Virus record (IMG/VR): IMGVR_UViG_3300045988_049142
Coordinates: 1-44,384 of that record
Source of the DNA: a virus
DNA: 44,384 nucleotides
Reading direction: 5' to 3' (one strand)
The translations under genes were made by a program, and so were the position numbers. Shown here one piece after another: positions 1 to 35,013 of this stretch (the first letter of the stretch is position 1; every line of letters starts with the position of its first letter). The notes under the pieces were generated by a model. It did no database searches. It was not told the DNA's origin and saw only the letters and a program-made list of their open reading frames with translations.

Positions 1-77
1 GTGGCTTTGCCAGACAGACGGGGCGGGATACAAGACGGCGACGCCTTACGACATTGCACCCCATGTAGACGCGCCTC
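1..77. repeat. Terminal overlap copy 1 (identical to 44308-44384)
   Basis: Base-by-base comparison: gtggctttgccagacagacggggcgggatacaagacggcgacgccttacgacattgcaccccatgtagacgcgcctc occurs at both ends. The length fits an assembler k-mer overlap on a circular molecule. Confidence 0.95.
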
Positions 78-4075: not shown

Positions 4076-4364
4076 CTGTCAGCTCCCCCTTTACATAACC
4101 CTCGAGCTTCCCACGACGCTTGAGGATGTGCAATCCGATATAATACGTCGAGAAACAAAGACATACACATTCCATTGCCGCAAATGCTCTAATAAAACTA
4201 TAGTCAGATGCCATAGCAGCGCTTGTAAGGGACAGAGAGAAAACAACGGACACCCACTTGTATCGTCTTTTTGTCATCGGTTTTTTACATAACCCAGCGG
4301 CAATCCACGGGATAAGCCCCACGGCAAGAACATCTTGAAGCAGGGCAAGAATATAACGAAGCAT
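4068..4364 (-). CDS. Small multi-pass membrane protein (98 aa), moron
   Basis: RBS GGAGGG. About three hydrophobic segments. The local GC of ~45% is well below the rest of the genome. Confidence 0.7.
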   Translation of the reverse strand: MLRYILALLQDVLAVGLIPWIAAGLCKKPMTKRRYKWVSVVFSLSLTSAAMASDYSFIRAFAAMECVCLCFSTYYIGLHILKRRGKLEGYVKGELTDD

Positions 4365-4515
4365 AAAATCCCTCCAAATAATGCTTTATTAATCACAGTT
4401 TACGGCAAATCGTACGCGCCCGCAAGGGGAAATTTTCGCGCCGCGCAGTTTTGTAGGAACGCACAATAGGTGACGCTTTAATACGGCGAAACGCCGAACC
4501 GGAAGGAGACCAAAA

Positions 4516-4617
4516 ATGGAAAAGAGAGAATTGATTTGCAAGATCCACATGGCGCTGAACGGCCTGCCGCCGCCGATCCTGCGCATAGCCCTCGCATTTG
4601 TGCGCGGGCTGGCCTAA
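4516..4617 (+). CDS. 33-aa micro-ORF
   Basis: MEKRELICKIHMALNGLPPPILRIALAFVRGLA. Strong RBS GGAAGGAG 7 nt upstream, and a terminator follows directly. Confidence 0.5.
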   Translation: MEKRELICKIHMALNGLPPPILRIALAFVRGLA

Positions 4618-4620
4618 AGA

Positions 4621-4644
4621 AAAAGCCCCCGCAAGGGGGCTTTT
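4621..4644. terminator. Bidirectional rho-independent terminator (GNRA-loop hairpin)
   Basis: AAAA-GCCCCC-GCAA-GGGGGC-TTTT. It can end both the plus micro-ORF transcript and the long leftward early operon. Confidence 0.8.
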
Positions 4645-4693
4645 CAGCGATCGCTTCAGCCATTGCGCCCATAAACGTGCGGTCGTCAGTCAG
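4638..4693. repeat. 56-bp perfect direct repeat, copy A (partner 9247-9302)
   Basis: ggcttttcagcgatcgcttcagccattgcgcccataaacgtgcggtcgtcagtcag, compared by eye in both places. Confidence 0.9.
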
Positions 4694-4699
4694 CATCAT
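4638..4699 (-). pseudogene. 5' remnant (first ~20 codons) of the 63-aa gene found intact at 9117-9308
   Basis: MMLTDDRTFMGAMAEAIAEK.. is encoded by a 56-bp stretch identical to 9247-9302. After that the frame runs into the terminator hairpin. Confidence 0.7.
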
Positions 4700-5588
4700 T
4701 CCGCCCTCCTAAAAGATCCATCTGCCCGCTGATAATGCCATCCTCCATCCACCAGTGCCACCATGACATGATATCTCCCTTTGCGGCCTGCTTTGGGTGC
4801 TTATCAAGATAGTGCTGCAGCGCCCGCATATACGCATCCTGATATTTCGGCCAACGCGCGAACTCGCGGGATCTGGACGCGCCGCCCATCGGGCAGCCTA
4901 CGCACCCCACGCGGTTAAATCCCATGTCGTAGCAGGGGTTATAAGCAAGGTTCTCGCCCCGGATAAACTCCCACACGTCGGTATTTGTCCAGTGGATGAT
5001 CGGGTTTACGATCGTGCTGCCCCGCACTTTGCACGCAGAAATAAATTTGTCATCATGCTCGATAGGGCTGCGACGCACGTCATCCTCAAACAGTTCAGCC
5101 GCATTTTCTGCATTGATTCTGTAACTGTCCGCCTTGGTCTTTCCGCGCGTCTCAAGCTCCCCTCGAGACGCGCGCTGCGAACTCTCATCGGCGCGAACGC
5201 CAGTAGCGATAGCTCGGTTTGCCCCGCCCGTCTCCTTGAGCACCGCGCAGCAAAATCGCCGCAACCTTGTCGGCAAGCCTTTATCGCCGATCAGCTTCCA
5301 CATGCTCGTCCGCTCGCCCTTGTACGTCGGCATGTTTACATAGCACTTCACGCCAGTCAGCTCCAACTCGTGCATCTGCTGGCGCACATACCGCACGGTT
5401 TCCGGCGCATCCGCCGTCGTGTGCGAGTGCTGTACCTCGTAAGGGATTCCCGCGCGCCTTGCAAGCTCCAGCAGCACAAGGCTGTCTTTGCCGCCGGAAT
5501 TGCAGATAAGCAGAGTCTGCTTGTAGTAGTGCAGGCTCATTCGGCTGCCGAGCTGCAAAAGGTTGATTGCCTGCTGTTCTTTATCCAT
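4686..5588 (-). CDS. Phosphoadenosine-phosphosulfate (PAPS) reductase-family PP-loop protein
   Basis: 300 aa, PP-loop motif NSGGKDS, C-terminal Cys cluster CVGCP, RBS GAAGGGAG. Confidence 0.8.
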   Translation of the reverse strand: MDKEQQAINLLQLGSRMSLHYYKQTLLICNSGGKDSLVLLELARRAGIPYEVQHSHTTADAPETVRYVRQQMHELELTGVKCYVNMPTYKGERTSMWKLIGDKGLPTRLRRFCCAVLKETGGANRAIATGVRADESSQRASRGELETRGKTKADSYRINAENAAELFEDDVRRSPIEHDDKFISACKVRGSTIVNPIIHWTNTDVWEFIRGENLAYNPCYDMGFNRVGCVGCPMGGASRSREFARWPKYQDAYMRALQHYLDKHPKQAAKGDIMSWWHWWMEDGIISGQMDLLGGRNDAD

Positions 5589-5657
5589 ATTTTTACTCCC
5601 TTCACACCGCCACGCAGTCCATCAACTGCGCCATCGTACGGATATTTTTGCACATTG

Positions 5658-7514
5658 TCATTTCTCCCCAAACCACTTTTTCGTCACCGCAATGGGAAAC
5701 GGCTCGATTTCGCTTGCCCACCGCGCCGTGCCTTTGCCGTGTATGCGCTCCCAGATCAGCGGGAAACCTGCGATGCCGTCAAACAAGCTCCCCAGCGTCG
5801 CGCCCTCCGGCAGATACCGCGCCATGCGCCGCAGCATCCAGTCCCAGAAGGGCAGGGCGATGGAGTTGCCCAGTGCCTTGTACCGTGGGCTGTCCGCGTC
5901 CTTGTGCTTCTTTCCCTTTTCGTCCGTCCACTCGCCGATATCCGTCCAGTGATCGGGGAATCCTTGCAGCCGCTCGCACTCCATCGGCGTCAGGCGGCGC
6001 ACGACCATGTTCTGCCGGACTGTATTATTCAAGTTCAGGCTTTGCCCGCCGCTTTCTTTCGCTTGAAGCGTGCCGTTTACCTCTCCGCCCTCTCGGAAAT
6101 TGCGGCAGTCTACGCTTGCGACATACGCTGCCATATCTGCGCGGTATGGGTCGTTTCCTTTTTCCCTTAGAGATGGGGATATTTCGCTCGACACTACCAG
6201 CATATCGTTGTATGCGTCCTGCCCGTTGTAGCTCCCAGCATGAGCGCCGGGGGAAAGCGTACCCGTCACATCTTGGTATGTAAGCGGCACTTGATTGCCG
6301 CCTGTTCCCATTCGTGCCTGCAGGCTTGGTACCTGCTCCCCGTACTCGCGGATGACGTCGCAGGCGTGTGTCATGTCCAGTGCCACCACTGGGGCAACCA
6401 CAGCTGGCTTATTCCCGCCGCACTCGGCGTTCAGTGTAGGGGACAGCTCCTCCTGATAGCCGATGCTCCGTGCCTGTTCACTGTTGCCCAGTTTAAACCC
6501 AGCACACAATACGCTGTCCCGCGCCATGCCGCCGTTCTCGTTGGCATTCAGACTGTGCCATACGCCATCCTGATCGTACACCCTTGCGCTCTGCGCATCC
6601 CAAGGATTCATGCACATTACTCCGTGGCGGTCACCAGCGGTCAGCGTGGGGGACGGGTCACCCTCTTTGCCGATTCCAAGACCATTGCCGCTGCCATCGT
6701 GGTTGCGACTTTCGCCACCGCCCTGCCATCTGGTGGCTTTGTCGTTGATGGGGATAGCCACAAATATGGCAGGATTGTTCACACCACCGCCAACACCGCC
6801 TTGCAGTGTGGGGGATTTTCCGTTTATGTTAAAAATACGCTTGCTTTGGCAATCCCAAGCCGTCATGCAGTCCCCGACTGCCGGATTAAAACCGCTTTCA
6901 GTAGCTTCGGCAAATCCTTCCCCCGCCGTTCCGCTCTCCGCAAGATGCCCAGACACGCTTTCGCGCTCAAATTGTATTTGGGCAGCGGATTCACCTCCAA
7001 AATCTGCGACAACCGAGATTCTTCGGCGACGCTGTGGGGTCCCCAGACGGATAACATCTCCTGTACGGCTGTCTCGGATGGTTTTTCCCCAGTCCTTAGC
7101 GTCGTGAGTTCGCCAAGCGATAGACCACCCATCACCGTCAATGGCTCCTGCTTTTGTCCATTTCCACTTTTCCGGCAGTCCAGATAAAGAAAATCCTGGT
7201 TCTGCGATACGCGCAATTTCTTCCAGCACGGCTGCGAAGTCTTTTCCTCTATTGCTGCTGAATGCTCCGACAACGTTCTCCCAAACGAGAAACCGAGGTC
7301 GAACCATGTCACCTGTCCGTCCATTCCGTTTGTCCTCCGCTCTCATTTCTTTTACGATGCGCACCTGCTCCATAAACAGGCCGCTTCGCGCTCCCGCCAA
7401 ACCGGCGCGTTTCCCGGCGATGGATAGATCCTGACACGGGCTGCCGCCCGTCACCACCCACACCGGCTCGATCTCCGCACCGTTTATCTTGCAGACGTCT
7501 CCCAAATGAACCAT
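5658..7514 (-). CDS. DNA (cytosine-5)-methyltransferase, circularly permuted, with an expanded target-recognition region
   Basis: 618 aa. Motif III HLGDV, IV GGSPCQDLS, VI LVWENV, VIII QRRRR, IX RRLTPMECERLQGFPD, X GNSIALP. Motifs I (LGSLFDGIAGF) and II (WASEIE) follow at the extreme C-terminus. Confidence 0.85.
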   Translation of the reverse strand: MVHLGDVCKINGAEIEPVWVVTGGSPCQDLSIAGKRAGLAGARSGLFMEQVRIVKEMRAEDKRNGRTGDMVRPRFLVWENVVGAFSSNRGKDFAAVLEEIARIAEPGFSLSGLPEKWKWTKAGAIDGDGWSIAWRTHDAKDWGKTIRDSRTGDVIRLGTPQRRRRISVVADFGGESAAQIQFERESVSGHLAESGTAGEGFAEATESGFNPAVGDCMTAWDCQSKRIFNINGKSPTLQGGVGGGVNNPAIFVAIPINDKATRWQGGGESRNHDGSGNGLGIGKEGDPSPTLTAGDRHGVMCMNPWDAQSARVYDQDGVWHSLNANENGGMARDSVLCAGFKLGNSEQARSIGYQEELSPTLNAECGGNKPAVVAPVVALDMTHACDVIREYGEQVPSLQARMGTGGNQVPLTYQDVTGTLSPGAHAGSYNGQDAYNDMLVVSSEISPSLREKGNDPYRADMAAYVASVDCRNFREGGEVNGTLQAKESGGQSLNLNNTVRQNMVVRRLTPMECERLQGFPDHWTDIGEWTDEKGKKHKDADSPRYKALGNSIALPFWDWMLRRMARYLPEGATLGSLFDGIAGFPLIWERIHGKGTARWASEIEPFPIAVTKKWFGEK

Positions 7515-7517
7515 GTC

Positions 7518-7655
7518 TCAACCTCCAAACACCACGCCGCACTCGTCCTTCGGCACCATCGCCACGTTGCCCATAGTATCTTGCGTGCCGTGCAACTTGC
7601 CCAGCATGTAAGCCTGTTTCGGGTTATTGGACAGCGGTCTCCCGTTAACTTTCAT
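7518..7655 (-). CDS. Possible 45-aa protein
   Basis: An internal ATG of the 7518-8003 ORF with GGAAGGG upstream. Its stop is 1 nt before the MTase start. The start choice is uncertain. Confidence 0.3.
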   Translation of the reverse strand: MKVNGRPLSNNPKQAYMLGKLHGTQDTMGNVAMVPKDECGVVFGG

Positions 7656-8007
7656 CGCTGTCACCGCCCTTCCGTTCGCCGCTGCTACAAAAACCATCAG
7701 GCAGCATTCTATATTCCTCGTCGTATAGGATTCTCCGGGTACACCATCCGGCTTTAACGTGTTTGCCATCAACAAAAAGCGACGTCCTTCCGTAATGCTG
7801 AAAGTATTTGCAATCCCGGCACCGCACCACTTCGACAAGCTGACCGCTTTCGACCTTCTTCTGCAACAAAATGAATTCATTCGTGGCGTACATTCTGCCT
7901 TTTGCGGCTTCATGCGCCATGTCAGCCATCGGGCATGGCTCTGTACAACAGTTGCACCGCTTGCGGATTGCCTCCATCGCATCCGCTCTCTTGATGTACG
8001 CATCCAT
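7645..8007 (-). CDS. Cys-rich phage hypothetical protein (120 aa)
   Basis: Start at ATG 8007 with RBS GGAGGG. CxxC pairs (CNCC, CRDC) and a C-terminal ..DGFCSSGERK motif typical of small phage zinc-binding proteins. Confidence 0.65.
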   Translation of the reverse strand: MDAYIKRADAMEAIRKRCNCCTEPCPMADMAHEAAKGRMYATNEFILLQKKVESGQLVEVVRCRDCKYFQHYGRTSLFVDGKHVKAGWCTRRILYDEEYRMLPDGFCSSGERKGGDSDES

Positions 8008-8009
8008 TG

Positions 8010-8507
8010 TCAGCCCTCCAATTTCATGTAGCAGCCCCAAAAGGTCTGCGATCTCTTCCCACTGTGATGACCAAATAAAGTCCGCTGTCCTATCGCTTTC
8101 CAAACTTCGGCGGCAGAGATCTGTGTTTCCGCCCACTTGAAAATCAATACGCCATCGGGTTTAAGCACACGCATACACTCTTCGAAACCGTCGTGGAGCA
8201 TTTTGGGCCAGTTGTTGTCGAGTCGGCCATACTTTTTGGCCAACCATGCGTTTTTTCCAACCTGACGTAGGTGGGGCGGATCCCAGACAACAAGAGCAAA
8301 CGAATTGTCATCAAACGGAAGATCCGTAAAATCGCATTGGATATCGGGGGCAATAATGCAAGATCTCTCGGGCTGACCACTTTCCGATTTCCAAACACCA
8401 TACAGTTCTTCAGCCCGTTTGTCTGCATAAATTGCAGCGGGGTGATTTTTGTTAAACCATATCGTCCGCGATCCGCAGGTTACGTCAAGGATTTTCTTTT
8501 TGCACAT
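8010..8507 (-). CDS. Small SAM-dependent DNA methyltransferase (DPPH motif; N6-adenine or N4-cytosine type)
   Basis: Start at ATG 8507 (TAATG overlap with the upstream gene). Motif I ILDVTCGS, motif IV VVWDPPH. Confidence 0.65.
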   Translation of the reverse strand: MCKKKILDVTCGSRTIWFNKNHPAAIYADKRAEELYGVWKSESGQPERSCIIAPDIQCDFTDLPFDDNSFALVVWDPPHLRQVGKNAWLAKKYGRLDNNWPKMLHDGFEECMRVLKPDGVLIFKWAETQISAAEVWKAIGQRTLFGHHSGKRSQTFWGCYMKLEG

Positions 8508-8755
8508 TATTCCGCCTCCCTCAACATATCTTTGATCTCGTCGATATTTGCCCGGATAATATCCATCGTCACGTCGCTCTGGATGTGGTGTGCAAACACG
8601 GCCTTGTCCGTTGCGTCTGCCCCATAGTACCCCGTAAAGACGTCGCCGTCGGGCGATGTTGCGGCGATGCACAGGCACACGGGGTCAATCCCCGCGATGA
8701 CCTGCAGCGATTCTTCCAGCCATGCCGCATACGGCTGTTTCGTGATGTCGTTCAT
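8507..8755 (-). CDS. Hypothetical protein (82 aa)
   Basis: ATG at 8755 overlaps the stop of the upstream gene. Coupled within the operon. Confidence 0.6.
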   Translation of the reverse strand: MNDITKQPYAAWLEESLQVIAGIDPVCLCIAATSPDGDVFTGYYGADATDKAVFAHHIQSDVTMDIIRANIDEIKDMLREAE

Positions 8756-9114
8756 CACTCCACCTCCTGCAGCCAATACTTGCGTCGGCAGTCGTGACAG
8801 CCGCTCGCATTCTCACGACATTCATCCAAAAGGCTTTTATCAAGATAGCAAGGCGGGACGTCAACAGTTCCGGTGAACGGGTTCATTTTGGCGTTAGGCC
8901 ACTGCTTCAAGAACTCACTCTGCCGCGTCTTGCGCGGATGCTCCTCCGCCCACTTCTCCACAAGTTTTACCATCTTCTGCATTTGATCGACTGTCCCAAA
9001 ATCTATCGGAAACTCCTGCGTAAAGACGCAAAATTCGTTCACATCGCATGTGCTGCAAGGCCCTGCATTGCTGCACATCCGCTTCGCTTCGCTCAAAAAC
9101 TTCACCGCATCCAT
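8755..9114 (-). CDS. Cys-rich phage hypothetical protein (119 aa)
   Basis: ORF in the operon with several CxxC-like pairs. Confidence 0.65.
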   Translation of the reverse strand: MDAVKFLSEAKRMCSNAGPCSTCDVNEFCVFTQEFPIDFGTVDQMQKMVKLVEKWAEEHPRKTRQSEFLKQWPNAKMNPFTGTVDVPPCYLDKSLLDECRENASGCHDCRRKYWLQEVE

Positions 9115-9116
9115 GT

Positions 9117-9308
9117 TTATTCCCCCTTCTCCAGCATGTCCGCCGCCGTTCTCAAGTCATCCGGCAGCATAATCGGAACTTCATAGATATTCGCCTCGGC
9201 CCACTCCGCGTATTCGCGCAGCATCGCAATAAGCCCCTCCCGCGTCGGCTTTTCAGCGATCGCTTCAGCCATTGCGCCCATAAACGTGCGGTCGTCAGTC
9301 AGTCCCAT
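9117..9308 (-). CDS. Hypothetical protein (63 aa), the intact copy of the gene truncated at 4638-4699
   Basis: The ORF overlaps the MTase stop. Its N-terminal 20 codons are repeated at 4638-4699. Confidence 0.6.
   Translation of the reverse strand: MGLTDDRTFMGAMAEAIAEKPTREGLIAMLREYAEWAEANIYEVPIMLPDDLRTAADMLEKGE
9247..9302. repeat. 56-bp perfect direct repeat, copy B (partner 4638-4693)
   Basis: See copy A. Confidence 0.9.
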
Positions 9309-10260
9309 CGCCGACTCCCATCATGTCAAACAAGGAGATTCCATCTGTCGCCTGACTGCCAAGTTCTGCGATTCTCTCCGCCTGTGCGCAGTTTTCAGCG
9401 GCAAGCCGGAAATAACTGGCTTTCAGTTCCACGCCAATATGTCTGCGTCCCATCAAAATGGACTGGTATCCGGTGGAGCCAATGCCGTCAAACGGGTCCA
9501 GCACAATGTCGCCGGGGTTGCTCCACAGTTCCACGCACCGCTCGATTACTGGAAGCTGCAACGGGCAGATGTGCCGTTCGTCCTTTTCTTCCTTCGCCGC
9601 TTTGCGGTTGAGTGTGTCACTCTGATTGATGTCCCACCATGTGGGGGATGCGTATTCCTCCCAGATCGGGGACGCTACCTGTTGCCACTTGGATACAGGA
9701 TAAGTGCTATCCGTGTGAGAAACTCTCTCCGGATTGTCCCCAGGCTTGCGGAATGTCACGACATAGTCCGGGATGCCCATCCGGCTCATACAGGAGTCTT
9801 TCTTTATCTGCTTATGCAGCAGCCCCAACGCCTTGGTGCGCTGCATGGCCGTCACGGGATTCTTCCAGATGCATACTTCGCTATGGTAAATAAATCCCAG
9901 CGACTGCATCCAGCGGATCACATCGCCCCGGAAATCCCGGATGCCGATATATCCGTCCCGCTCCTTGCTGGTAGGGAGGTTCATGCAGTGGATGCTTACA
10001 TTCCGCCCCGGCATCATTACGCGATACCATTCGCGCCCTAAGTACATGTACTGTTCGGCGAACTCTTCGTAGCTCCGGCAGTTGCCCATATCCCGATCGC
10101 TGTTGGAGTATGTATACAAACTGGCAAACGGAATAGAGGTCACAGAATAGTGGATGCTGTTGTCGGGGATTCCTTTCAGCACCTCGCAACTGTCTCCGTT
10201 ATAAACCGCATATCTGCGGCCAATGGCCTGGTCTAACACATTCATGCGCTTATCACCCAT
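9295..10260 (-). CDS. DNA methyltransferase, N6/N4 beta-class (motif IV before motif I)
   Basis: 321 aa, motif IV-like TSIPFASLY, motif I VLDPFDGIGSTG. An alternative ATG at 10245 forms an ATGA overlap with the helicase stop. Confidence 0.8.
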   Translation of the reverse strand: MGDKRMNVLDQAIGRRYAVYNGDSCEVLKGIPDNSIHYSVTSIPFASLYTYSNSDRDMGNCRSYEEFAEQYMYLGREWYRVMMPGRNVSIHCMNLPTSKERDGYIGIRDFRGDVIRWMQSLGFIYHSEVCIWKNPVTAMQRTKALGLLHKQIKKDSCMSRMGIPDYVVTFRKPGDNPERVSHTDSTYPVSKWQQVASPIWEEYASPTWWDINQSDTLNRKAAKEEKDERHICPLQLPVIERCVELWSNPGDIVLDPFDGIGSTGYQSILMGRRHIGVELKASYFRLAAENCAQAERIAELGSQATDGISLFDMMGVGDGTD

Positions 10261-11851: not shown

Positions 11852-12219
11852 TGCGTCACCTCCACCTTGATAGATCCACCATGCCACACCTCATGCGTGA
11901 CGCGGCGCACCCACCGCCGGTTATCGTCCGGCAGGATCCAGCCTTTTAGGGCGTCGACGATTGCCTTGCCGATGACGGCATGGTTGTCGATATCGAGGCG
12001 ATCGTCCCACAAAAACCGGATTGATACCGGAGCAGACGTCAGGCGACGCGGGATACCGGCTTTGCGCAGCGCTGCATGGGTGATTGCGTGCAGCTCCTCC
12101 GCATCGCGCTTGCGCTGTTGCCAGCACTTGCCGGCGTAGTAGGCATTTAACCCGTAGCGCTTGTTCCACGCGGCCTTCCCGCGCTGCGTCGGCGGGTATT
12201 GGATTGTAAACTCGGTCAT
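11845..12219 (-). CDS. rusA: RusA-like Holliday-junction resolvase
   Basis: 124 aa, with DIDNHAVIGKAIVDALKGWILPDDN matching the RusA acidic catalytic signature. Confidence 0.6.
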   Translation of the reverse strand: MTEFTIQYPPTQRGKAAWNKRYGLNAYYAGKCWQQRKRDAEELHAITHAALRKAGIPRRLTSAPVSIRFLWDDRLDIDNHAVIGKAIVDALKGWILPDDNRRWVRRVTHEVWHGGSIKVEVTQW

Positions 12220-12860
12220 ATGTCACCCCATGTCATGTATTTTTCCAGACTCGCGCCCGCGTAATTGCAGTCCGGCAGGCCCCGGATTTTAGGCGGCGGA
12301 GATTTGGCGAGGCGGTCAAAAATGATCCCCTGCCAATTGCTGGACATGCACTTGTTGATCAAGTCGACCACGGCCTGATCCCCGTACTTCTCGGCATTGT
12401 GCCGGATCTCGGAGACGAGGGCGCGTAACCCCTCCGGTTTGTAGGATTGATTTTTTTCCGCCTTGTACCGGAGCCACGCTTCCGTAGCGCTCCGGAGCGC
12501 CGGAGAGAGGCGGGCAAGATCTGGGGGCGGCGGTCGACTCACGGGCTTTTTCTGCGGTGGCGGATCTGCCTTTACCGGCTCTTGCTTAATAGGCTCCGGC
12601 TTTACAGGCTCAGGAGGCTTTTTCGCGGCCTTTCGCCCCCCTGCGCGGCCAGCACTGGCCTTTTTCTGCGCCGCGACAAGCTGCGGCATGATCAGCTCCA
12701 CGGCGACCGCGACGATGGCAGGAAGGGCATCGAGATCCGGCTCCTCCCCAAACAGCGCGAACCGCTGGATCGCGTCGTAAAACGCGCAACGCGCGACCGG
12801 ATCGGTGATCCGGTCGGCGGCGCGGGCGAAAGATATGTGAAATGTAAACTGTTCGCGCAT
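12216..12860 (-). CDS. Phage early protein with Pro/Lys-rich linker (possible replication organiser)
   Basis: 214-aa ORF with two globular parts joined by KKPPEPVKPEPIKQEPVKADPPPQKKP. The function is not established. Confidence 0.6.
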   Translation of the reverse strand: MREQFTFHISFARAADRITDPVARCAFYDAIQRFALFGEEPDLDALPAIVAVAVELIMPQLVAAQKKASAGRAGGRKAAKKPPEPVKPEPIKQEPVKADPPPQKKPVSRPPPPDLARLSPALRSATEAWLRYKAEKNQSYKPEGLRALVSEIRHNAEKYGDQAVVDLINKCMSSNWQGIIFDRLAKSPPPKIRGLPDCNYAGASLEKYMTWGDI

Positions 12861-17807: not shown

Positions 17808-18182
17808 GTGACGACCGTAAACGAGCGCATTAAGGCCATAATGCAAGCGCTTGGGATGACAAACACGGCATTTGCAGATAGGCTTAATGTCTCTCAGTCG
17901 TTTGTTTCAAAAATTGCGGCTGGGCGGTCGATCCCCAGCGACCGCACGATCTCGGATATCTGCCGCGAGTTCCATGTCGATGAGCACTGGCTCCGCACCG
18001 GAGATGGAGAGATGTTTGTACGTCTGTCTCTCGAGGAGGAGCTGGCGAAGTACGCGGCGCAGGTGCTGACGGATCCGGATCGTGAGTTCCAGCGCCAGCT
18101 CCTGCGGATCATGGCGCGGCTGGACCCGCAGGACTGGAGCGCGCTGGAGGAGATCGCAAAAAAGCTCAGGCAGGAGCCTTGA
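17808..18182 (+). CDS. CI-like XRE-family repressor (no peptidase domain)
   Basis: 124 aa, GTG start. HTH is MTNTAFADRLNVSQSFVSKIAAG. Divergent from the early operon and followed by a terminator. Confidence 0.8.
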   Translation: MTTVNERIKAIMQALGMTNTAFADRLNVSQSFVSKIAAGRSIPSDRTISDICREFHVDEHWLRTGDGEMFVRLSLEEELAKYAAQVLTDPDREFQRQLLRIMARLDPQDWSALEEIAKKLRQEP

Positions 18183-18190
18183 GCAAAAAA

Positions 18191-18217
18191 ACCCGTCCCT
18201 GAGTGGGGCGGGTTTTT
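18191..18217 (+). terminator. Rho-independent terminator of the repressor gene
   Basis: ACCCGTCCC-tgagt-GGGGCGGGT followed by TTTTT. Confidence 0.8.
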
Positions 18218-18230
18218 CTCATCCCTGAGA

Positions 18231-18262
18231 GGGGGAAGGGGGGACTATAGGGGGGTAAGGGG
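18231..18262 (+). repeat. G-quadruplex-type motif (G5-aa-G6-actata-G6-taa-G4)
   Basis: Four G-runs of at least 4 with loops of 2, 6 and 3 nt, read directly. Confidence 0.6.
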
Positions 18263-18313
18263 AGAGCCTTATCTCCTACAAGATAGATTCTTTTTATCTA
18301 CTAGGGGGAGTAT

Positions 18314-18342
18314 TCTCTTTTCTTTGCTTCTTTCTTTTCTCT
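18314..18342 (+). repeat. Homopyrimidine mirror repeat TCTCTTTTCTTT-gcttc-TTTCTTTTCTCT (H-DNA-type)
   Basis: 12-nt arms are exact mirror images within a ~50-nt tract that is almost entirely T/C. Confidence 0.6.
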
Positions 18343-18360
18343 TGTTTTTTCGCTCTGCGC

Positions 18361-18514
18361 AAGCAAAGCAGAAGCAAGACGTAAGCAAACAGTAAGCAAA
18401 CGACAAGCAAAACGAAAGCAAACAGCAAGCAAAACGAAAGTAAACGGAAAGCAAAAAGAAAGCAACGAGCAAGCAAAAAGCAAGCAAACGGAAAGCAAAA
18501 AGAAAGCACCCAGC
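18361..18514 (+). repeat. 14 contiguous 11-bp direct repeats, consensus AAGCAAA(A/C)NGN
   Basis: Units start every 11 nt from 18361. The stretch is almost T-free on the plus strand. About 1.5 inverted copies of the unit (complement of 18527-18545, reading CTAAAGCAAACAGCAAACA) lie beyond the terminator hairpin. Confidence 0.9.
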
Positions 18515-18530
18515 AATCACGCTGGGTGCT
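18492..18530 (-). terminator. Rho-independent terminator of the 19229->18545 operon
   Basis: AGCACCCAGC-N6-GCTGGGTGCT. On the minus strand it is followed by TTCTTTTTGCTTTC. Confidence 0.7.
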
Positions 18531-18544
18531 GTTTGCTGTTTGCT

Positions 18545-18853
18545 TTAGCCCTCGATAACATCGAGAATCCACTGGTCGCCGCGCTCGATCTCCTCGTCGG
18601 TCAGTCCGTCGAGGCCGTCGTTGTCCTGGCCCCGATTTGATGCATAGACGGCTGTGTGCCAAAAATCGAGCATATCGTCGAGATCCTCGTCGGTGGAGAC
18701 GATGATGTCGGAGCCGGGCAGACGATCGGGGTGGGTGCGAGGGAAATCGGGTTCCAGATCCTGCAGGCAGTCGGGACCGTAGCCCCTGTCCCAGCCGCCG
18801 GTATAACGGCGGAGGGAGACGGTGACGGTGCGGGTGGGGGTAGTGATCATCAT
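18545..18853 (-). CDS. Strongly acidic 102-aa protein
   Basis: ORF. Hand count gives 23 Asp/Glu against 8 Arg and no Lys. Last gene of the small leftward operon. Confidence 0.65.
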   Translation of the reverse strand: MMITTPTRTVTVSLRRYTGGWDRGYGPDCLQDLEPDFPRTHPDRLPGSDIIVSTDEDLDDMLDFWHTAVYASNRGQDNDGLDGLTDEEIERGDQWILDVIEG

Positions 18854-18854
18854 T

Positions 18855-19004
18855 TTAAGCTCCTTTCTGGCCGTCAGCGACGGCCTTGAGCAGAATCTGC
18901 TCGATGTAGTTTGAGAGAGATCTGCCGTCGGCGGCGGCCAGTTGCTCGAGGCGGGCTTTCACGTCCTCGTCGAGCCGAAGCCCGACAAACGCGGTCTTAG
19001 CCAT
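18855..19004 (-). CDS. Ribbon-helix-helix (CopG/Arc/ParR-like) DNA-binding protein, 49 aa
   Basis: MAKTAFVGLRLDEDVKARLEQLAAADGRSLSNYIEQILLKAVADGQKGA has a beta-strand plus two helices in the classic RHH pattern. Below the ORF-track cut-off. Its stop is 1 nt before the next ATG. Confidence 0.65.
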   Translation of the reverse strand: MAKTAFVGLRLDEDVKARLEQLAAADGRSLSNYIEQILLKAVADGQKGA

Positions 19005-19019
19005 GTCTGCATCCCCCTC

Positions 19020-19229
19020 TCAGTACACTGGGTTCTCGGTGTTGAGTTCCCACTCCGCACCGTACTTCTCGGCGTGGGCGACGGCGTAGGCCGCAAAAAA
19101 GGCCTGCTCCGTGCAGGGGGCGAGTTCCGCGTGGATCGCCTCGCGGATCTCGTCATCCATCAGCGCGACGGCGGCATCAAAGTCGATCTCGCGTCCGGCA
19201 GCGTTTACAACTTTTCCCATTTTTTTCAA
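19020..19229 (-). CDS. Small conserved hypothetical protein (69 aa)
   Basis: RBS AAAGGA. First gene after the leftward promoter at 19288-19316. Confidence 0.6.
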   Translation of the reverse strand: MKKMGKVVNAAGREIDFDAAVALMDDEIREAIHAELAPCTEQAFFAAYAVAHAEKYGAEWELNTENPVY

Positions 19230-19287
19230 TCCTTTCCGGCCAAAGGCCTGTCCGATGGGTGGGTGTCTATCGTTTGATCTTGTCTAT

Positions 19288-19316
19288 ATTGTACAACAAC
19301 GTTTAACATCTTACAA
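19288..19316 (-). promoter_or_regulatory. Leftward promoter (TTGTAA-17 nt-TACAAT)
   Basis: On the minus strand, -35 is at 19311-19316 and -10 at 19288-19293 with a 17-nt spacer. Confidence 0.6.
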
Positions 19317-19374
19317 TAGGCATACTGCACAAAGTTTTGCATTAGGAATTGCGCGTTTTGACGGGGCTTGGCGT

Positions 19375-19403
19375 GGGACATTGGCAAAAATCAGGGATAT
19401 AAT
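19375..19403 (+). promoter_or_regulatory. Possible rightward (late/packaging) promoter, GGGACA-17 nt-TATAAT
   Basis: Perfect -10 at 19398-19403, weak -35. Confidence 0.35.
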
Positions 19404-19680
19404 AGATGCGTGGGTTATGGCTTGGGGCTACACACTCTCCTTTTTGTCGCCCCCCGCAAGGGGGGCTATGCGGCCAAGAGTATCCCCGGTGCAACTCCGG
19501 GAGGCCGCGCCAGATGGGCTGGACATCCCATTATCGGGGATATCAGACAGGGGATAGATAGCGCCTGTCAAAGCGGGGTGCCGCCCCCGTAAGCGCGGCA
19601 GGATGTAGCCGGTGACGGCTGGGGACTATCTGCTGATTAAGCTAGGGTGGGGGCTGGCAGATCAATACAACAGACACACG

Positions 19681-20097
19681 ATGGGGGGATACGTTGTGGC
19701 CGATGTGATTAATCCGCGTAAGCGCAAAAAAATCGTGGCCGACTATGTGACGCTGGGATCATACGCGGCAGCGGCACGGATCAACGGCGTGGCACCCAAC
19801 AGCGTTAAGCGGATCGTGGCGGCAGAGCCGGAGATCGCGAGGCTTTGCGCACAAAAAAAAGAACAGGATACGCAGGACGTGCTGGCGTACATGGGTAAGC
19901 AGTCCGATCTTGTATGCGATATCATCGGCAAGGGGCTGACGGCGTTGGCCGATGATGATAAGCTGGCAGCGGCCAACCCGGCGCAGATCACCACGGCGAT
20001 CGGCACGCTGATCGACAAGTGGACGATGGTCCGCGACCGGCAGACGCAAAGCGGGGTACAGGTAAATCTCGGCGACGCGGAGGAGTACAGCGGATGA
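19681..20097 (+). CDS. terS: Terminase small subunit (HTH type); start uncertain
   Basis: Immediately precedes TerL with an ATGA overlap. HTH is GSYAAAARINGVAPNSVKRIV. Alternative starts are GTG 19612 and GTG ~19696. Confidence 0.55.
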   Translation: MGGYVVADVINPRKRKKIVADYVTLGSYAAAARINGVAPNSVKRIVAAEPEIARLCAQKKEQDTQDVLAYMGKQSDLVCDIIGKGLTALADDDKLAAANPAQITTAIGTLIDKWTMVRDRQTQSGVQVNLGDAEEYSG

Positions 20098-21521
20098 TCA
20101 CGATCCACATTGACAAGCCCAACGCGCGGCAGGAGCTGTTTTTGCGCGATCGGCACAAGTACATCGCCTTCGGCGGGGCGCGCGGCGGCGGGAAGAGCTG
20201 GGCGGTGCGCACCAAGGCCAAGCTGCTGTGCCTGCGGTATCCCGGCATACGATGTCTAATCGTCCGCCGGACGTACCCGGAACTGATCAACAACCACATC
20301 CGGCAGCTGCGGCAGGAGCTGGCCGGTGTTGCGCGATATAACGACAAGGACAAGATCCTGATGATGCCGGGCGGCAGCTCCATCTCTTTCGCGTACTGCG
20401 CCAAGGACGGGGACCTGGACCGGCTGCAGGGCGTGGAGTATGACGTGATTTTCCTCGACGAGGCGACGCAGCTAAGCGAGTACCAGATGACCACCATCAC
20501 GGCGTGTCTTCGCGGCGTGAACGCCTTTCCGAAGCGGGTATACTACACCTGCAACCCCGGCGGGCAAGGCCATCAGTATATTAAGCGATTATTCGTCGAT
20601 CGGCACTTCCTCCCGGGCGAGGATCCAGACGATTACTCGTTTATTAAGTCTCTCGTTACGGACAACGCCGCGCTGATGCGGCAGGATCCTGAGTACATCC
20701 ACCAGCTGGAGGCACTGCCAGAGCGTCTCCGGCGGGCGTGGCTCAACGGGGACTGGGACGTATTTTGGGGGCAGTTTTTCGAGGAGTTCGCGGACGCGCC
20801 GGCACATTATGATGATCGGAGCTTTACGCACGTCATCGCGCCGTTTGAGATCCCGCCGGACTGGCGGATCTATCGGTCGTTTGACTGGGGCTATGCCAAG
20901 CCCTTCTCATGCGGGTGGTGGGCGGTCGACTACGACGGATGCCTCTACCGGATTCTAGAGCTGTACGGGTGTACGCGGGAGGCGAACACCGGGATTAAGT
21001 GGCCGCCGGACAAGGTGTTCGCGGAGATCCACCGGATCGAGACGGAGCATCGCTGGCTGAAGGGCAAGATGATCACCGGCGTGGCCGATCCGGCCATCTG
21101 GGACGCCGAGCGCGGGGAGAGTATTCAGGAGGTCGCGGCGCGGCATGGGGTGTACTTCAGCCGGGGCGACAACAAGCGCATTCCCGGCTGGATGCAGATG
21201 CACTACCGGATGGCCTTTGACGAGGCCGGGCGGGCACAGATGTATATCTTTAACAACTGCCGGGCGGCGATCCGTACGATCCCGCTGCTGCAGTACGATG
21301 ACCATCATGTCGAGGATCTGGATACAACCGGTGAGGATCATATCGCCGATGAGATGCGGTATATGTGCATGGCGAGGCCGATCAAGCCCCGCGCGAAGCA
21401 TGGTCGGGATCCGTATCTGGATAGCCCGCTGTACACGGCGCTCGACATCCCGCGCGAGGACATCCTCCCCGCGCCTGAGCTGGTGCCGATGACGATCAAG
21501 GAGGTAACCGATGGCGATTGA
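20094..21521 (+). CDS. terL: Terminase large subunit
   Basis: 475 aa from ATG 20094 (RBS GGAGGAG). Walker A GGARGGGKS, Walker B-like VIFLDEAT, C-terminal nuclease-type acidic motifs. Confidence 0.9.
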   Translation: MITIHIDKPNARQELFLRDRHKYIAFGGARGGGKSWAVRTKAKLLCLRYPGIRCLIVRRTYPELINNHIRQLRQELAGVARYNDKDKILMMPGGSSISFAYCAKDGDLDRLQGVEYDVIFLDEATQLSEYQMTTITACLRGVNAFPKRVYYTCNPGGQGHQYIKRLFVDRHFLPGEDPDDYSFIKSLVTDNAALMRQDPEYIHQLEALPERLRRAWLNGDWDVFWGQFFEEFADAPAHYDDRSFTHVIAPFEIPPDWRIYRSFDWGYAKPFSCGWWAVDYDGCLYRILELYGCTREANTGIKWPPDKVFAEIHRIETEHRWLKGKMITGVADPAIWDAERGESIQEVAARHGVYFSRGDNKRIPGWMQMHYRMAFDEAGRAQMYIFNNCRAAIRTIPLLQYDDHHVEDLDTTGEDHIADEMRYMCMARPIKPRAKHGRDPYLDSPLYTALDIPREDILPAPELVPMTIKEVTDGD

Positions 21522-34993: not shown

Positions 34994-35013
34994 CGCAAGC
35001 GAGGGAGGCAACT

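What the first reader, a model, noticed from the sequence alone, without database searches (positions are those of the whole stretch)
18361..18545. Fourteen contiguous 11-bp iteron-like repeats next to a ribbon-helix-helix gene
From 18361 to 18514 the sequence is an uninterrupted array of 14 units with an 11-bp period, AAGCAAA(A/C)NGN. It is almost T-free on the plus strand.
- Each unit carries an A3-A5 tract. The tracts are therefore phased close to the helical repeat, which predicts strong intrinsic curvature.
- The last unit forms the left arm of the operon terminator hairpin. Beyond it, about 1.5 units recur inverted (complement of 18527-18545) and overlap the stop codon of the acidic-protein gene.
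- The same operon encodes a 49-aa ribbon-helix-helix protein (18855-19004), 340 bp upstream of the array.
- Arrays of about 10 direct 11-bp repeats bound cooperatively by an RHH protein are the architecture of type II plasmid centromeres (parC/ParR of R1). I found no ParM/ParA-type NTPase here, and no recognisable replication initiator anywhere in the genome.

The array may therefore be an origin or iteron set, a centromere-like or transcription-silencing platform for the RHH protein, or a packaging-related bend. It does not match any standard feature class I can name.
Basis: partly seen in the sequence, partly recalled or inferred. Interest (0 to 1): 0.7.

Follow-up and report, generated by a model that had tools for sequence, protein, structure and literature searches.

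The report
Free-standing phage replication-origin repeat array
The 14 tandem 11-bp repeats are real, and they most likely form a detached replication-origin binding site of a kind that many phages hide inside a replication gene, not a plasmid-style centromere for the neighbouring small DNA-binding protein.

Summary
There are 14 in-phase 11-bp units, AAGCAAA(A/C)(A/C)GN, at 18361-18514. The stretch has 3 T in 154 nt and ends in a bidirectional terminator hairpin.

The array is not unique. The same 11-bp-phased AAGCAAA repeat occurs in at least 120 viral contigs and at least 120 cellular genomes. It usually lies inside the linker-coding part of phage replication-organizer genes. Arrays of 6 or more units are almost always behind a DUF6291 N-terminal domain. 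They are followed by a hexamer-repeat tract and C-runs.

Phage SPP1 has the same layout. Its proven origin oriL lies inside gene 38, and a second intergenic copy, oriR, sits among moron genes.

The window encodes a DUF6291-type protein (12216-12860) between SSB and RusA. In this clade alone the gene has lost its internal array. These phages instead carry a free array of 14-30 units. A relative whose organizer was swapped for another type keeps only 6 units.

The ribbon-helix-helix (RHH) gene follows an AcrIC5 anti-CRISPR homolog and is probably that operon's regulator. The phage integrates and has no ParM or ParA.

Best reading: an SPP1 oriR-like iteron array, confidence about 0.5. No binding or replication has been tested. 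Rival readings are a packaging site, an RHH platform, an RNA role and a relic.

The parts
18361..18514 (+). Array of 14 tandem 11-bp units, consensus AAGCAAA(A/C)(A/C)GN; candidate iterons
   Evidence: Register and composition. A logo of 123 units from 7 related phages shows positions 1-6 nearly invariant and positions 8, 9 and 11 free.
18505..18530 (.). Hairpin AGCACCCAGC-N6-GCTGGGTGCT, a bidirectional terminator. It closes the minus-strand anti-CRISPR operon and insulates the array.
   Evidence: The stem is kept through compensatory changes in relative L156 (GCACCCGG/CCGGGTGC).
18527..18545 (-). About 1.5 inverted repeat units (AAGCAAACAGCAAACAGCA on the minus strand), forming the T-rich tail of the plus-strand terminator and abutting the stop codon of the acidic gene
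18305..18355 (.). Pyrimidine (TC) tract, GA-rich on the minus strand, containing one inverted AAGCAAA. It is the counterpart of the GA-hexamer tract that follows arrays in high-GC organizer genes and is a candidate easily melted region.
   Evidence: Together with the array it is the most AT-rich 200-bp and 300-bp stretch of the window (62% and 59% against 42%).
18222..18265 (.). G-runs (GGGGG AA GGGGGG ACTATA GGGGGG TAA GGGG), which are C-runs on the minus strand. They are the counterpart of the CCCCCCTATAATCCCCC motifs in relatives and of the TATCCCCCTACCCCC that follows in-gene arrays.
18186..18217 (+). Terminator of the CI-like repressor gene. Together with 18505-18530 it brackets the element.
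12216..12860 (-). 214-aa DUF6291-type replication-organizer homolog. It lies between SSB and RusA, has a Pro/Lys-rich linker and no internal array. It is the candidate protein that binds the array.
17808..18182 (+). CI/Cro-type HTH repressor-like gene flanking the element on the left
   Evidence: Pfam HTH_3 and Phage_CI_repr.
18545..18853 (-). 102-aa acidic protein with no family match. It is the last gene of the operon and is absent in relatives L156-158, so it is not tied to the array.
18855..19004 (-). 49-aa ribbon-helix-helix protein, a neighbour of the array and probably the regulator of the anti-CRISPR operon
19020..19229 (-). 69-aa AcrIC5 (anti-CRISPR) homolog, first gene of the operon
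   Evidence: Pfam PF22147, E=1.2e-23, 83 bits against a cut-off of 27.
19612..20097 (+). Putative small terminase with an HTH, overlapping terL (20019-21521). It is relevant to the packaging rival.

Best explanation
The array is a cis-acting DNA element of the phage's replication origin: a set of iterons. It is the free-standing counterpart of a composite element that most related phages carry inside the linker-coding part of their replication-organizer gene. That composite has three parts: 11-bp phased AAGCAAA repeats, then a hexamer-repeat easily melted tract, then C-runs.

Proposed mechanism (inferred, by analogy with SPP1 gp38 at oriL and oriR):
1. The DUF6291-type organizer encoded at 12216-12860 binds successive units, one per helical turn, and forms a nucleoprotein array.
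2. The adjacent AT-rich purine/pyrimidine tract (18305-18355) melts.
3. The organizer's C-terminal domain recruits host or phage replisome-loading factors.

In this phage clade the in-gene copy has been deleted. The intergenic copy is therefore the only one, and it is expanded to 14-30 units.

What is shown: the anatomy, the distribution, the synteny and the loss/expansion pattern.
What is inferred: protein binding, melting and initiation.
For: **1. The repeat type is widespread and sits in replication genes**
- The pattern AAGCAAA-N4 x3 hits at least 120 viral contigs with GC from 23% to 67%.
- 100 of the 120 arrays lie in open frames longer than 150 aa.
- Of 66 non-redundant N-terminal segments, Pfam assigns 43 to DUF6291 and 3 to DUF1376. 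The others match winged-helix HTH families or nothing.
- 57 of 58 in-ORF arrays with 6 or more units carry the (F/I/V)YRSF signature typical of DUF6291 N-termini.
- The neighbours are SSB, recombination genes, and DnaC-like or DnaB-like genes. One member has a DnaD-like C-terminus.

**2. The selection acts on nucleic acid, not protein**
- An 11-bp period inside coding DNA is read in three frames (KQ / SK / AN). Protein selection cannot produce that periodicity, so the constraint is on the DNA or RNA sequence.
- Homologs found by protein similarity alone also carry period-11 arrays. These are L134, L143, Riemerella phage GRNRAP2 and Nitratiruptor phage NrS-3.

**3. An experimentally characterised parallel exists**
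- SPP1 gene 38 holds oriL at the same place in the gene: 4.6 T-free repeats of 11-12 bp followed by (AACAATGAT)n.
- SPP1 oriR is an intergenic copy (AAAAGACAC x3.2 plus AACAATGATAAAC). It lies after a terminator and beside moron genes.
- gp38 binds both origins (PMC6316719).

**4. Loss and expansion are complementary**
- The window's DUF6291-type gene and its 75-90% identical homologs lack the array-encoded linker. In that alignment, every more distant homolog has a linker of the array type.
- These same phages carry a free array of 14-30 units.
- Sister lineages L134 and L148 keep the in-gene composite and have only 3-5 external units.
- L122, whose organizer was replaced by another type with its own 10-bp repeats, keeps only 6 units.

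**5. The core is under purifying selection**
- Across 123 units (46 distinct sequences), positions 1-6 are 93-100% conserved while spacer positions vary.
- The spacer bias (A/C at position 8, G at position 10) matches high-GC DUF6291 in-gene arrays.

**6. The local context fits an origin**
- The element is the most AT-rich 200-300 bp of the genome.
- It is bracketed by terminators.
- It lies at the cumulative GC-skew minimum.
Against: - No binding or replication data exist for any DUF6291 protein. The literature library has no paper that mentions DUF6291.
- The AlphaFold model of the N-domain (three helices, pLDDT about 87) has no significant match in the PDB.
- The window protein scores 24.3 bits against Pfam DUF6291, below the 27.2-bit cut-off.
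- L122 keeps 6 units although no DUF6291 gene is seen in its locus.
- Short AAGCAAA arrays of 3-4 units also follow other N-terminal domains, so the heptamer alone is not specific to DUF6291.
- In L148 the in-gene repeat core (GCGAACG) differs from the external one (AGCAAA).
- In the window the array is inverted relative to the GA-tract and C-run modules, compared with the canonical order.
- In L134 and L148 the external element lies 60-100 bp upstream of terS, which also fits a packaging site.
- The GC-skew minimum is confounded by the switch in transcription direction.
- Only 2 of 99 in-gene-array loci show a second array within the fetched flanks, and both are weak.
Confidence: 0.5

Rival explanations
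1. Packaging recognition site (pac, similar to pacL of SPP1). The small terminase oligomer would bind the phased repeats and bent DNA upstream of the terminase genes to start headful packaging.
For: - In L148 and L134 the external composite (AGCAAA repeats, GA tract, C-runs) lies 60-100 bp upstream of terS.
- In the window family the element lies on the terS side of the genome, about 1.1 kb upstream of terS.
- TerL matches Terminase_6N and Terminase_3, families that to my knowledge are typical of headful packagers.
- Contig L141 ends 15 bp after the C-run motif.
Against: - The same motifs occur with two unrelated terS types: Terminase_2-like in L134 and the window type in L148.
- Most arrays of this type lie inside replication-organizer genes far from terS.
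- In the window a variable convergent moron operon and about 380 bp separate the array from terS.
- Array length tracks the state of the organizer gene, not that of terS, which is 92-98% identical in all relatives.
Confidence: 0.12
2. Platform for the neighbouring 49-aa ribbon-helix-helix protein. This is the first reader's model: a centromere-like (ParR/parC) or silencing array bound cooperatively by RHH dimers.
For: - The RHH gene is adjacent to the array in all nine close relatives examined.
- The 11-bp direct-repeat geometry equals that of R1 parC (my own knowledge).
- Relatives with two arrays flanking a unique segment of about 150 bp recall the split parC layout.
Against: - No ParM-type or ParA-type NTPase is present. 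Every early-region ORF of 190 aa or more has another assignment.
- The phage has a serine integrase, and a relative is integrated beside spo0A and spoIIP.
- The array is downstream of the operon, beyond its terminator, not at its promoter.
- The RHH protein is minimal, has no ParR, ParG or Omega family match, and follows an AcrIC5 homolog.
- The operon promoter carries a TTGTACAA palindrome and no AAGCAAA.
- None of the other 239 array-bearing loci encodes a homolog of this RHH protein.
- L134 and L148 have the external element without any RHH gene.
Confidence: 0.08
3. Function at the RNA level. The array would be transcribed as an A-rich, T-free, unstructured RNA, for example a protein sponge or a leader.
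For: - In L092 and L207 a strong sigma-70-like promoter (TTGACA-17-TATATT or TATACT) lies directly upstream of a non-coding array.
- In-gene arrays are always on the sense strand.
- In the window the plus-strand copy ends at a hairpin followed by a T-rich tail.
Against: - No promoter-like site lies between the CI terminator (18192-18207) and the array.
- There is no Rfam match at gathering threshold or at E<=1.
- The sense orientation of in-gene arrays is forced by coding, because TTTGCTT would encode hydrophobic residues.
- An 11-nt phase is natural for double-stranded DNA and has no obvious meaning for RNA.
Confidence: 0.08
4. Non-functional, slippage-prone relic. It would be a leftover of an organizer-gene linker or a hypervariable satellite with no role.
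For: - Unit number varies from 6 to 30 among phages whose flanking genes are 83-97% identical.
- Some genome hits to the pattern are plain perfect tandem repeats in unrelated contexts, such as L169, L262 and L257.
- L207 is an orphan copy in a bacterial chromosome.
Against: - Core positions are 93-100% conserved over 123 units while the spacers differ (46 distinct units). That is the opposite of neutral decay and of simple homogenisation.
- The element is present at the same site in every relative.
- Array size correlates with loss or replacement of the in-gene copy.
Confidence: 0.12

Closest known systems
Bacillus phage SPP1 origins oriL (inside gene 38) and oriR (intergenic), bound by the replisome organizer gp38
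   Same: - Tandem T-free direct repeats of about 11 bp are followed by a short-period AT-rich repeat tract.
- One copy lies in the linker-coding part of the organizer gene.
- A second, intergenic copy is bracketed by transcription signals and sits next to moron genes.
- Sister phages L134 and L148 show the same two-site layout.
   Different: - The repeat sequence differs: AAGCAAA here against (A/G)AAA(C/A)GACAC in SPP1.
- The organizer N-domain is DUF6291-type. It is not the gp38 type.
- The array has 14-30 units against 3-5 in SPP1.
- In this clade the in-gene copy is absent.
- The melted-tract module is a GA/TC tract with G/C-runs, and here it is inverted relative to the repeats.
- There is no DnaB-type helicase or loader gene next to the organizer. 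The neighbour is an SNF2-type helicase.
- Binding has not been tested.
Phage lambda ori inside gene O (iterons with phased A-tracts in the initiator gene)
   Same: The origin repeats are embedded in the coding sequence of the initiator, between its DNA-binding and recruitment domains, next to an AT-rich region. This comparison rests on my own knowledge, not on a tool result.
   Different: - Lambda has four iterons of about 19 bp, which are inverted-repeat sites.
- Here the units are 11-bp direct repeats, there are many more of them, and in the window they lie outside any gene.
Type II plasmid centromere parC with ParR (plasmid R1)
   Same: About ten direct 11-bp repeats lie close to a gene for a ribbon-helix-helix protein. 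The parC geometry is from my own knowledge.
   Different: - There is no ParM.
- The array is not at the operon promoter.
- The RHH protein is 49 aa and lacks a partner-binding tail.
- The element belongs to an integrating temperate phage.
- The array type is found overwhelmingly inside replication genes without any RHH gene.
acr-aca anti-CRISPR operons, including AcrIC5 loci with RNA anti-CRISPRs (Racr)
   Same: The neighbouring operon starts with an AcrIC5 homolog followed by a small DNA-binding protein. A Racr was described 11 nt downstream of an AcrIC5 homolog (PMC10651486).
   Different: The array has an 11-bp period and no resemblance to a CRISPR repeat. Rfam gives no CRISPR-DR match. The downstream hairpin looks like an ordinary terminator.

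Membership tests
Phage origin of the replisome-organizer type (SPP1 oriL/oriR-like) | Tandem direct repeats spaced about one helical turn apart | tested here: met
   There are 14 units at exactly 11 bp. SPP1 oriL and oriR have periods of 11-12 bp.
Phage origin of the replisome-organizer type (SPP1 oriL/oriR-like) | Adjacent AT-rich, easily melted region (DNA unwinding element) | tested here: inconclusive
   The array plus the TC tract is the most AT-rich 200-300 bp of the genome. The tract is a GA/TC run, not the AATGTA/AACAATGAT type, and it is inverted relative to the repeats. Melting was not modelled.
Phage origin of the replisome-organizer type (SPP1 oriL/oriR-like) | The genome encodes an organizer whose gene family carries the same repeats internally | tested here: met
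   The gene at 12216-12860 is homologous to DUF6291 proteins that carry in-gene AAGCAAA arrays. Its own internal copy is deleted.
Phage origin of the replisome-organizer type (SPP1 oriL/oriR-like) | The organizer protein binds the repeats specifically | not testable with these tools
   This needs EMSA or footprinting. The structure model gave no informative fold match.
Phage origin of the replisome-organizer type (SPP1 oriL/oriR-like) | The element supports initiation of replication | not testable with these tools
   This needs an ori-cloning assay, marker-frequency analysis or 2D gels.
Type II partition centromere (parC/ParR/ParM) | About 10 direct repeats of about 11 bp | tested here: met
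Type II partition centromere (parC/ParR/ParM) | The repeats overlap or flank the promoter of the par operon | tested here: not met
   The array is downstream of the operon, past its terminator. The promoter-like site is at 19316-19288 and carries no AAGCAAA.
Type II partition centromere (parC/ParR/ParM) | Actin-like ParM (or another partition NTPase) encoded alongside | tested here: not met
   No such family appears among the operon or early-region proteins.
Type II partition centromere (parC/ParR/ParM) | The host replicon is maintained extrachromosomally | tested here: not met
   A serine integrase lies at 2049-3365. Relative L157 is integrated beside spo0A and spoIIP.
pac site / small-terminase recognition site | Lies within or immediately upstream of terS | tested here: inconclusive
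   This holds in L134 and L148, at 60-100 bp. In the window the array is about 1.07 kb away, behind a convergent operon.
pac site / small-terminase recognition site | The sequence co-varies with the TerS type | tested here: not met
   The same motifs occur with a Terminase_2-like terS (L134) and with the window-type terS (L148).
pac site / small-terminase recognition site | Packaging-series termini map to the site | not testable with these tools
   This needs virion DNA reads. The window is a circular assembly with a 77-bp overlap.
Pfam DUF6291 (PF19808), for the protein at 12216-12860 | Score at or above the curated gathering cut-off | tested here: inconclusive
   The protein scores 24.3 bits against a cut-off of 27.2, E=3.5e-5. 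Homologs at 44-47% identity carry PF19808. The alignment is collinear over the N-domain.
RNA anti-CRISPR (Racr, solitary CRISPR repeat unit) | Sequence and structure mimic a CRISPR repeat of 28-37 nt | tested here: not met
   There is no Rfam CRISPR-DR or other match. The period is 11 nt.
acr-aca operon (neighbouring genes) | A validated Acr family member followed by a small DNA-binding regulator | tested here: met
   AcrIC5 (PF22147) scores 83 bits against a cut-off of 27, and an RHH gene follows it. The regulator role was not tested.

The most novel reading that the evidence does not exclude
The expanded, hypervariable array of 6-30 units may not be merely an origin. It could act as a titration or roadblock device. 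A long run of organizer-bound iterons, placed between the lysogeny repressor and the anti-defence/late region, would arrest forks or sequester initiator. That would time the switch from theta to concatemeric replication, as has been proposed but not proven for gp38 bound at SPP1 oriR. More broadly, the three-part composite (AAGCAAA repeats, hexamer repeats, C-runs) may be a portable origin cassette. It would be shared by organizers with unrelated N-terminal domains and would even occur as promoter-driven orphan copies in bacterial chromosomes.
Probability: 0.15. Interest if true: 0.7.

Novelty: new variant of a known kind. Interest (0 to 1): 0.5.

Why it matters
- **A function for an uncharacterised family.** If correct, DUF6291 gets a testable role as the origin-binding domain of a phage replication organizer. 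DUF6291 is widespread in phages and prophages, and no paper in the searched library mentions it.
- **A simple sequence signature.** AAGCAAA phased at 11 bp, followed by a hexamer-repeat tract, could locate origins in thousands of uncultivated phage genomes from many bacterial phyla.
- **A natural experiment.** In the window's clade the in-gene copy is deleted and an intergenic copy is expanded. This separates the DNA element from its coding context, so the DNA-level function can be tested directly.
- **A cleaner annotation of the neighbourhood.** The RHH gene belongs to an anti-CRISPR operon. It does not belong to a partition system.

Tried and rejected
- **RNA families.** Rfam at gathering threshold on the whole window and at E<=1 on 18100-19400 found nothing relevant. 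No tRNA genes were found.
- **GenBank phages by DNA similarity.** Only terminase-region matches turned up, and nothing covered the array.
- **Structure route.** AlphaFold2 on a 36-sequence alignment gave a confident 3-helix N-domain and a helical C-domain joined by a disordered linker. Foldseek against the PDB gave no match with E<=0.001, so the fold does not yet support DNA binding.
- **My first locus count was circular.** The figure '99 of 120 inside DUF6291 ORFs' used an HMM trained on a mixture of N-termini. I replaced it with Pfam counts and a signature count.
- **Host identification.** A scan of genome contigs for the terminator hairpin gave 0 hits.
- **Generality of the two-site layout.** Only 2 of 99 in-gene-array loci had a second external array, and both were weak. 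The two-site layout is therefore specific to this lineage.
- **RHH homologs near other arrays.** None were found outside the window family.
- **Curvature modelling.** The result depends on the model and is not exceptional.
- **Racr reading of the hairpin.** I considered this because of the AcrIC5 precedent. I rejected it because the hairpin does not resemble a type I-C repeat (my knowledge of the consensus) and Rfam gives no hit.
- **attP.** Rejected, because the prophage boundary in L157 lies next to the integrase gene.
- **Late-promoter activator site.** Unlikely in the window, because a convergent operon lies between the array and the late promoter region.
Full report
**1. The observation**

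Positions 18361-18514 hold fourteen 11-bp units in perfect register. Ten carry the exact core AAGCAAA. The consensus is AAGCAAA(A/C)(A/C)GN. Tandem Repeats Finder reports periods of 11 and 22. AAGCAAA occurs 14 times in the window against 4.9 expected, and no shuffle reaches 14. The stretch has 3 T in 154 nt and is the most purine-skewed 150 bp of the window.

The last unit is the left arm of a hairpin at 18505-18530 that scores as a terminator on both strands. About 1.5 units recur inverted at 18527-18545, next to the stop codon of the acidic gene. The ORF at 18855-19004 is a ribbon-helix-helix (RHH) protein. The description is therefore correct.

Strong intrinsic curvature is not established. 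One wedge model places the array near the 1st to 2nd percentile of 150-bp windows, and another finds it unremarkable (parameters recalled from memory).

**2. The genome and the neighbourhood**

The window is a complete circular assembly with a 77-bp terminal overlap. It is a temperate phage.
- It encodes a serine integrase at 2049-3365.
- A relative is integrated beside spo0A and spoIIP in a Clostridia-type host.
- Early genes run on the minus strand from about 17.5 kb down to 4.7 kb. In order they are a Sak-like annealing protein, a RecE-like exonuclease, NinB, SSB, a 214-aa protein, RusA, an SNF2-type helicase and methyltransferases.
- Late genes run on the plus strand from the putative terS (19612) and terL (20019).

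The array lies between two converging transcription units. On the left is a CI-type repressor gene (17808-18182) with its terminator. On the right is a minus-strand operon (19229 down to 18545). The first gene of that operon is an AcrIC5 anti-CRISPR homolog (E=1.2e-23, 83 bits). It is followed by the RHH gene and an acidic 102-aa gene. The RHH protein therefore sits in an acr-aca-type operon.

The operon's promoter-like site (19316-19288) carries a TTGTACAA palindrome and no AAGCAAA. The segment left of the array (18222-18355) holds G-runs and a TC-rich tract.

**3. The array belongs to a widespread class**

- 100 of the 120 arrays lie inside open frames longer than 150 aa, typically 75-90 aa after the start.
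- Pfam assigns 43 of 66 non-redundant N-terminal segments to DUF6291 and 3 to DUF1376. The others match winged-helix HTH families or nothing.
- Among in-ORF arrays with 6 or more units, 57 of 58 have the (F/I/V)YRSF signature typical of DUF6291 N-termini. The remaining one resembles SPP1 gp38.
- One member has a DnaD-like C-terminus. C-terminal halves match proteins annotated as replisome organizer or DnaD-like loader in GenBank phages.
- Neighbouring genes are SSB, RecT, and DnaC-like or DnaB-like genes.

These genes are replication-organizer genes, and the array sits in the part that encodes the interdomain linker. After the array comes a second repeat with a period of 6. In low-GC phages it is AATGTA/AATGAT. 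In high-GC phages it is GAGAAA, followed by TATCCCCCTACCCCC.

Because 11 is not a multiple of 3, the core is read in all three frames (K-Q, S-K, A-N). Protein selection cannot create this periodicity, so the constraint acts on DNA or RNA.

The association is not an artefact of the search pattern. Homologs found by protein similarity alone also have period-11 arrays. L134 and L143 carry AAGCAAA. Riemerella phage GRNRAP2 and Nitratiruptor phage NrS-3 carry AAACCNAA.

A second scan found at least 120 bacterial and archaeal genomes from many phyla with four or more in-phase cores. I counted 49 of these next to DUF6291-like frames, using the mixed N-terminus HMM that section 9 flags as circular for the viral count. 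Some of the others are unrelated perfect tandem repeats.

**4. The experimentally characterised parallel**

In phage SPP1 the origin-binding organizer gp38 binds direct repeats in oriL, which lies within gene 38. It also binds oriR, an intergenic copy. Both origins have direct repeats plus an AT-rich unwinding element. oriR lies in a segment bracketed by transcription signals, together with moron genes (PMC6316719).

I read these sequences directly.
- Gene 38 carries, right after its N-terminal domain, 4.6 T-free repeats of 11-12 bp (AGAAACGACAC) followed by (AACAATGAT)n.
- oriR carries AAAAGACAC x3.2 with period 11, followed by AACAATGATAAAC x2.2, just after a terminator.

This is the same architecture, at the same place in the gene, as the DUF6291 arrays.

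**5. What is special in the window**

The 214-aa protein at 12216-12860 is a DUF6291-type organizer homolog. It scores 24.3 bits against Pfam, below the 27.2-bit cut-off. Homologs at 44-47% identity carry PF19808.

In the alignment of 36 homologs, only the window protein and its 75-90% identical relatives lack the array-encoded linker. They have a Pro/Lys-rich linker instead. Their gene contains no AAGCAAA.

Exactly these phages carry the free array at the conserved site. The order is CI-like gene, terminator, G-runs, TC tract, array, hairpin, then the acidic gene (where present) and the RHH gene. Unit counts differ between relatives.

| Phage | Units in the free array | Layout |
|---|---|---|
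| window | 14 | single array |
| L124 | 14 | single array |
| L123 | 17 | two arrays around a unique segment of about 150 bp |
| L156 | 19 | two arrays around a unique segment of about 150 bp |
| L121 | 24 | two arrays around a unique segment of about 150 bp |
| L125 | 30 | two arrays around a unique segment of about 150 bp |

Sister lineages L134 and L148 keep the in-gene composite. They also have a short external composite: 3-5 AAAGCA/AGCAAA units, a GA tract, and CCCCCCTATAATCCCCC-type runs. This is an oriL-plus-oriR-like layout.

L122 is otherwise 94-98% identical in the flanking genes. Its organizer has been replaced by an unrelated type with its own 10-bp GCAACTTGCG repeats and AATCCG hexamers. 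It keeps only 6 AAGCAAA units.

Over 123 units from seven phages, core positions 1-6 are 93-100% conserved while spacer positions vary, giving 46 distinct units. The spacer bias matches high-GC DUF6291 in-gene arrays. The array plus the TC tract is the most AT-rich 200-bp and 300-bp stretch of the genome.

**6. Interpretation**

The best-supported reading is that the array is a cis-acting origin element, a set of iterons of the SPP1 oriR kind. Its probable binder is the DUF6291-type organizer, and the adjacent purine/pyrimidine tract is the probable melting region.

The anatomy, distribution, synteny and loss/expansion pattern are shown. Binding, melting and initiation are inferred. I put the confidence at about 0.5.

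The weak points are these.
- No experimental data exist for any DUF6291 protein, and no paper in the library mentions the family.
- The fold model is uninformative.
- L122 retains 6 units without a DUF6291 gene in its locus.
- Short AAGCAAA runs also occur behind other N-terminal domains.
- In L148 the internal and external cores are not identical.
- In the window the array is inverted relative to the GA-tract and C-run modules.

**7. Rival explanations**

- **Packaging site (0.12).** In L134 and L148 the external element lies 60-100 bp upstream of terS, and TerL belongs to families typical of headful packagers. However, the same motifs go with two unrelated terS types. Most arrays lie in replication genes. 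In the window a variable moron operon separates the array from terS.
- **RHH platform or centromere (0.08).** Adjacency holds only within this family. There is no partition NTPase, the phage integrates, the array is not at the promoter, and none of the other 239 array loci has a homolog of this RHH protein.
- **RNA-level role (0.08).** Two non-coding arrays elsewhere follow strong promoters (L092, L207). The window has no promoter-like site upstream of the array and no Rfam match.
- **Relic or satellite (0.12).** Copy number is very variable, but the conservation of the core against variable spacers argues for selection.

**8. Comparison with known systems, and novelty**

The element works like SPP1 oriR. 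It also resembles, more loosely, lambda ori inside gene O. It differs from SPP1 in several ways.
- The repeat sequence differs.
- The protein family differs.
- The array is much larger.
- The in-gene copy is absent.
- The GA/TC tract and G/C-run modules replace the AT-rich repeat.

It fails three of the four testable defining features of a parC/ParR/ParM centromere. I rate it a new variant of a known kind.

It matters mainly for two reasons. It proposes a function for DUF6291, together with a sequence signature for origins in many uncultivated phages. This clade also separates the DNA element from its coding context.

**9. Dead ends and cautions**

My first count, '99 of 120 in DUF6291 ORFs', was circular. 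replace it. A genome scan for the hairpin found nothing. The two-site layout is not general. A Racr reading of the hairpin, prompted by the AcrIC5-Racr precedent, has no support.

Noticed in passing
window 18545-19229 (minus strand): The operon next to the array is an anti-CRISPR-type locus. It holds an AcrIC5 homolog (69 aa, 83 bits), a 49-aa RHH protein (probable Aca-like regulator) and an acidic 102-aa protein with no family match, which could be a second Acr. The locus is variable: L121-125 lack the AcrIC5 homolog and L156-158 lack the acidic gene.
   Followed up: partly
window 18222-18265: Four G-runs (G5, G6, G6, G4) with short loops form a canonical G-quadruplex-forming motif on the plus strand. 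The complementary C-run motif CCCCCCTATA(A/G)TCCCCCC is conserved in L134, L148 and the close relatives, and resembles the TATCCCCCTACCCCC that follows in-gene arrays.
   Followed up: partly
L121, L123, L125, L156 (between the two arrays; for example L156 reverse complement of 4151-4900): A unique segment of about 150 bp splits the array into two blocks. It contains hairpins (gccgcaagggattgcggc; gcggcgaatcggatcttgccgc). It is absent from the window, and its function is unknown.
   Followed up: no
L122 17150-17900: In this close relative the organizer slot between SSB and RusA holds an unrelated protein with no Pfam match. It carries its own in-gene 10-bp repeats (GCAACTTGCG x7) followed by AATCCG/AATCCA hexamers. 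This is the same two-module architecture with different sequences.
   Followed up: partly
L207 3640-4060 (Oscillospiraceae MAG chromosome); L092 3540-3690: Non-coding AAGCAAA arrays lie directly after strong TTGACA-17-TATACT or TATATT promoters. L207 has at least 18 units, GA hexamers and C-runs. It sits between a J-domain gene and a TetR-like gene, with no phage genes nearby. This may be an orphan origin cassette or a transcribed element.
   Followed up: partly
Proteins encoded just upstream of in-gene arrays: A short conserved motif precedes the arrays in organizers with unrelated N-domains: (R/K)xxAG(K/R)xGG, often GGRPK. It resembles an AT-hook core. It might contact the A-tract repeats.
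   Followed up: no
window 18505-18530 against L156: The terminator stem differs by compensatory changes (CCCAGC/GCTGGG against CCCGG/CCGGG), while the loop keeps GTGATT. The hairpin is therefore under selection.
   Followed up: partly
L190 3275-3538: A DUF6291 gene in a Clostridia MAG has 24 in-gene units, so very long arrays are not restricted to free-standing copies.
   Followed up: partly
window 34948-43734: A single 2928-aa ORF lies in the tail region. This is unusually long for a 44-kb siphovirus-like genome.
   Followed up: no
window 4686-10260: The early region carries three DNA methyltransferase genes and a PAPS-reductase-like gene. Together with the anti-CRISPR operon, this suggests a heavy anti-restriction and anti-defence load.
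   Followed up: no
window 19288-19316: A TTGTACAA palindrome overlaps the -10 element of the acr-operon promoter. Promoter-like sites overlap here on both strands. This is the likely operator of the RHH protein.
   Followed up: no
window 1-77 and 44308-44384: An exact 77-bp terminal repeat is present. It is an assembly overlap that indicates a circular or circularly permuted complete genome of 44,307 bp.
   Followed up: yes
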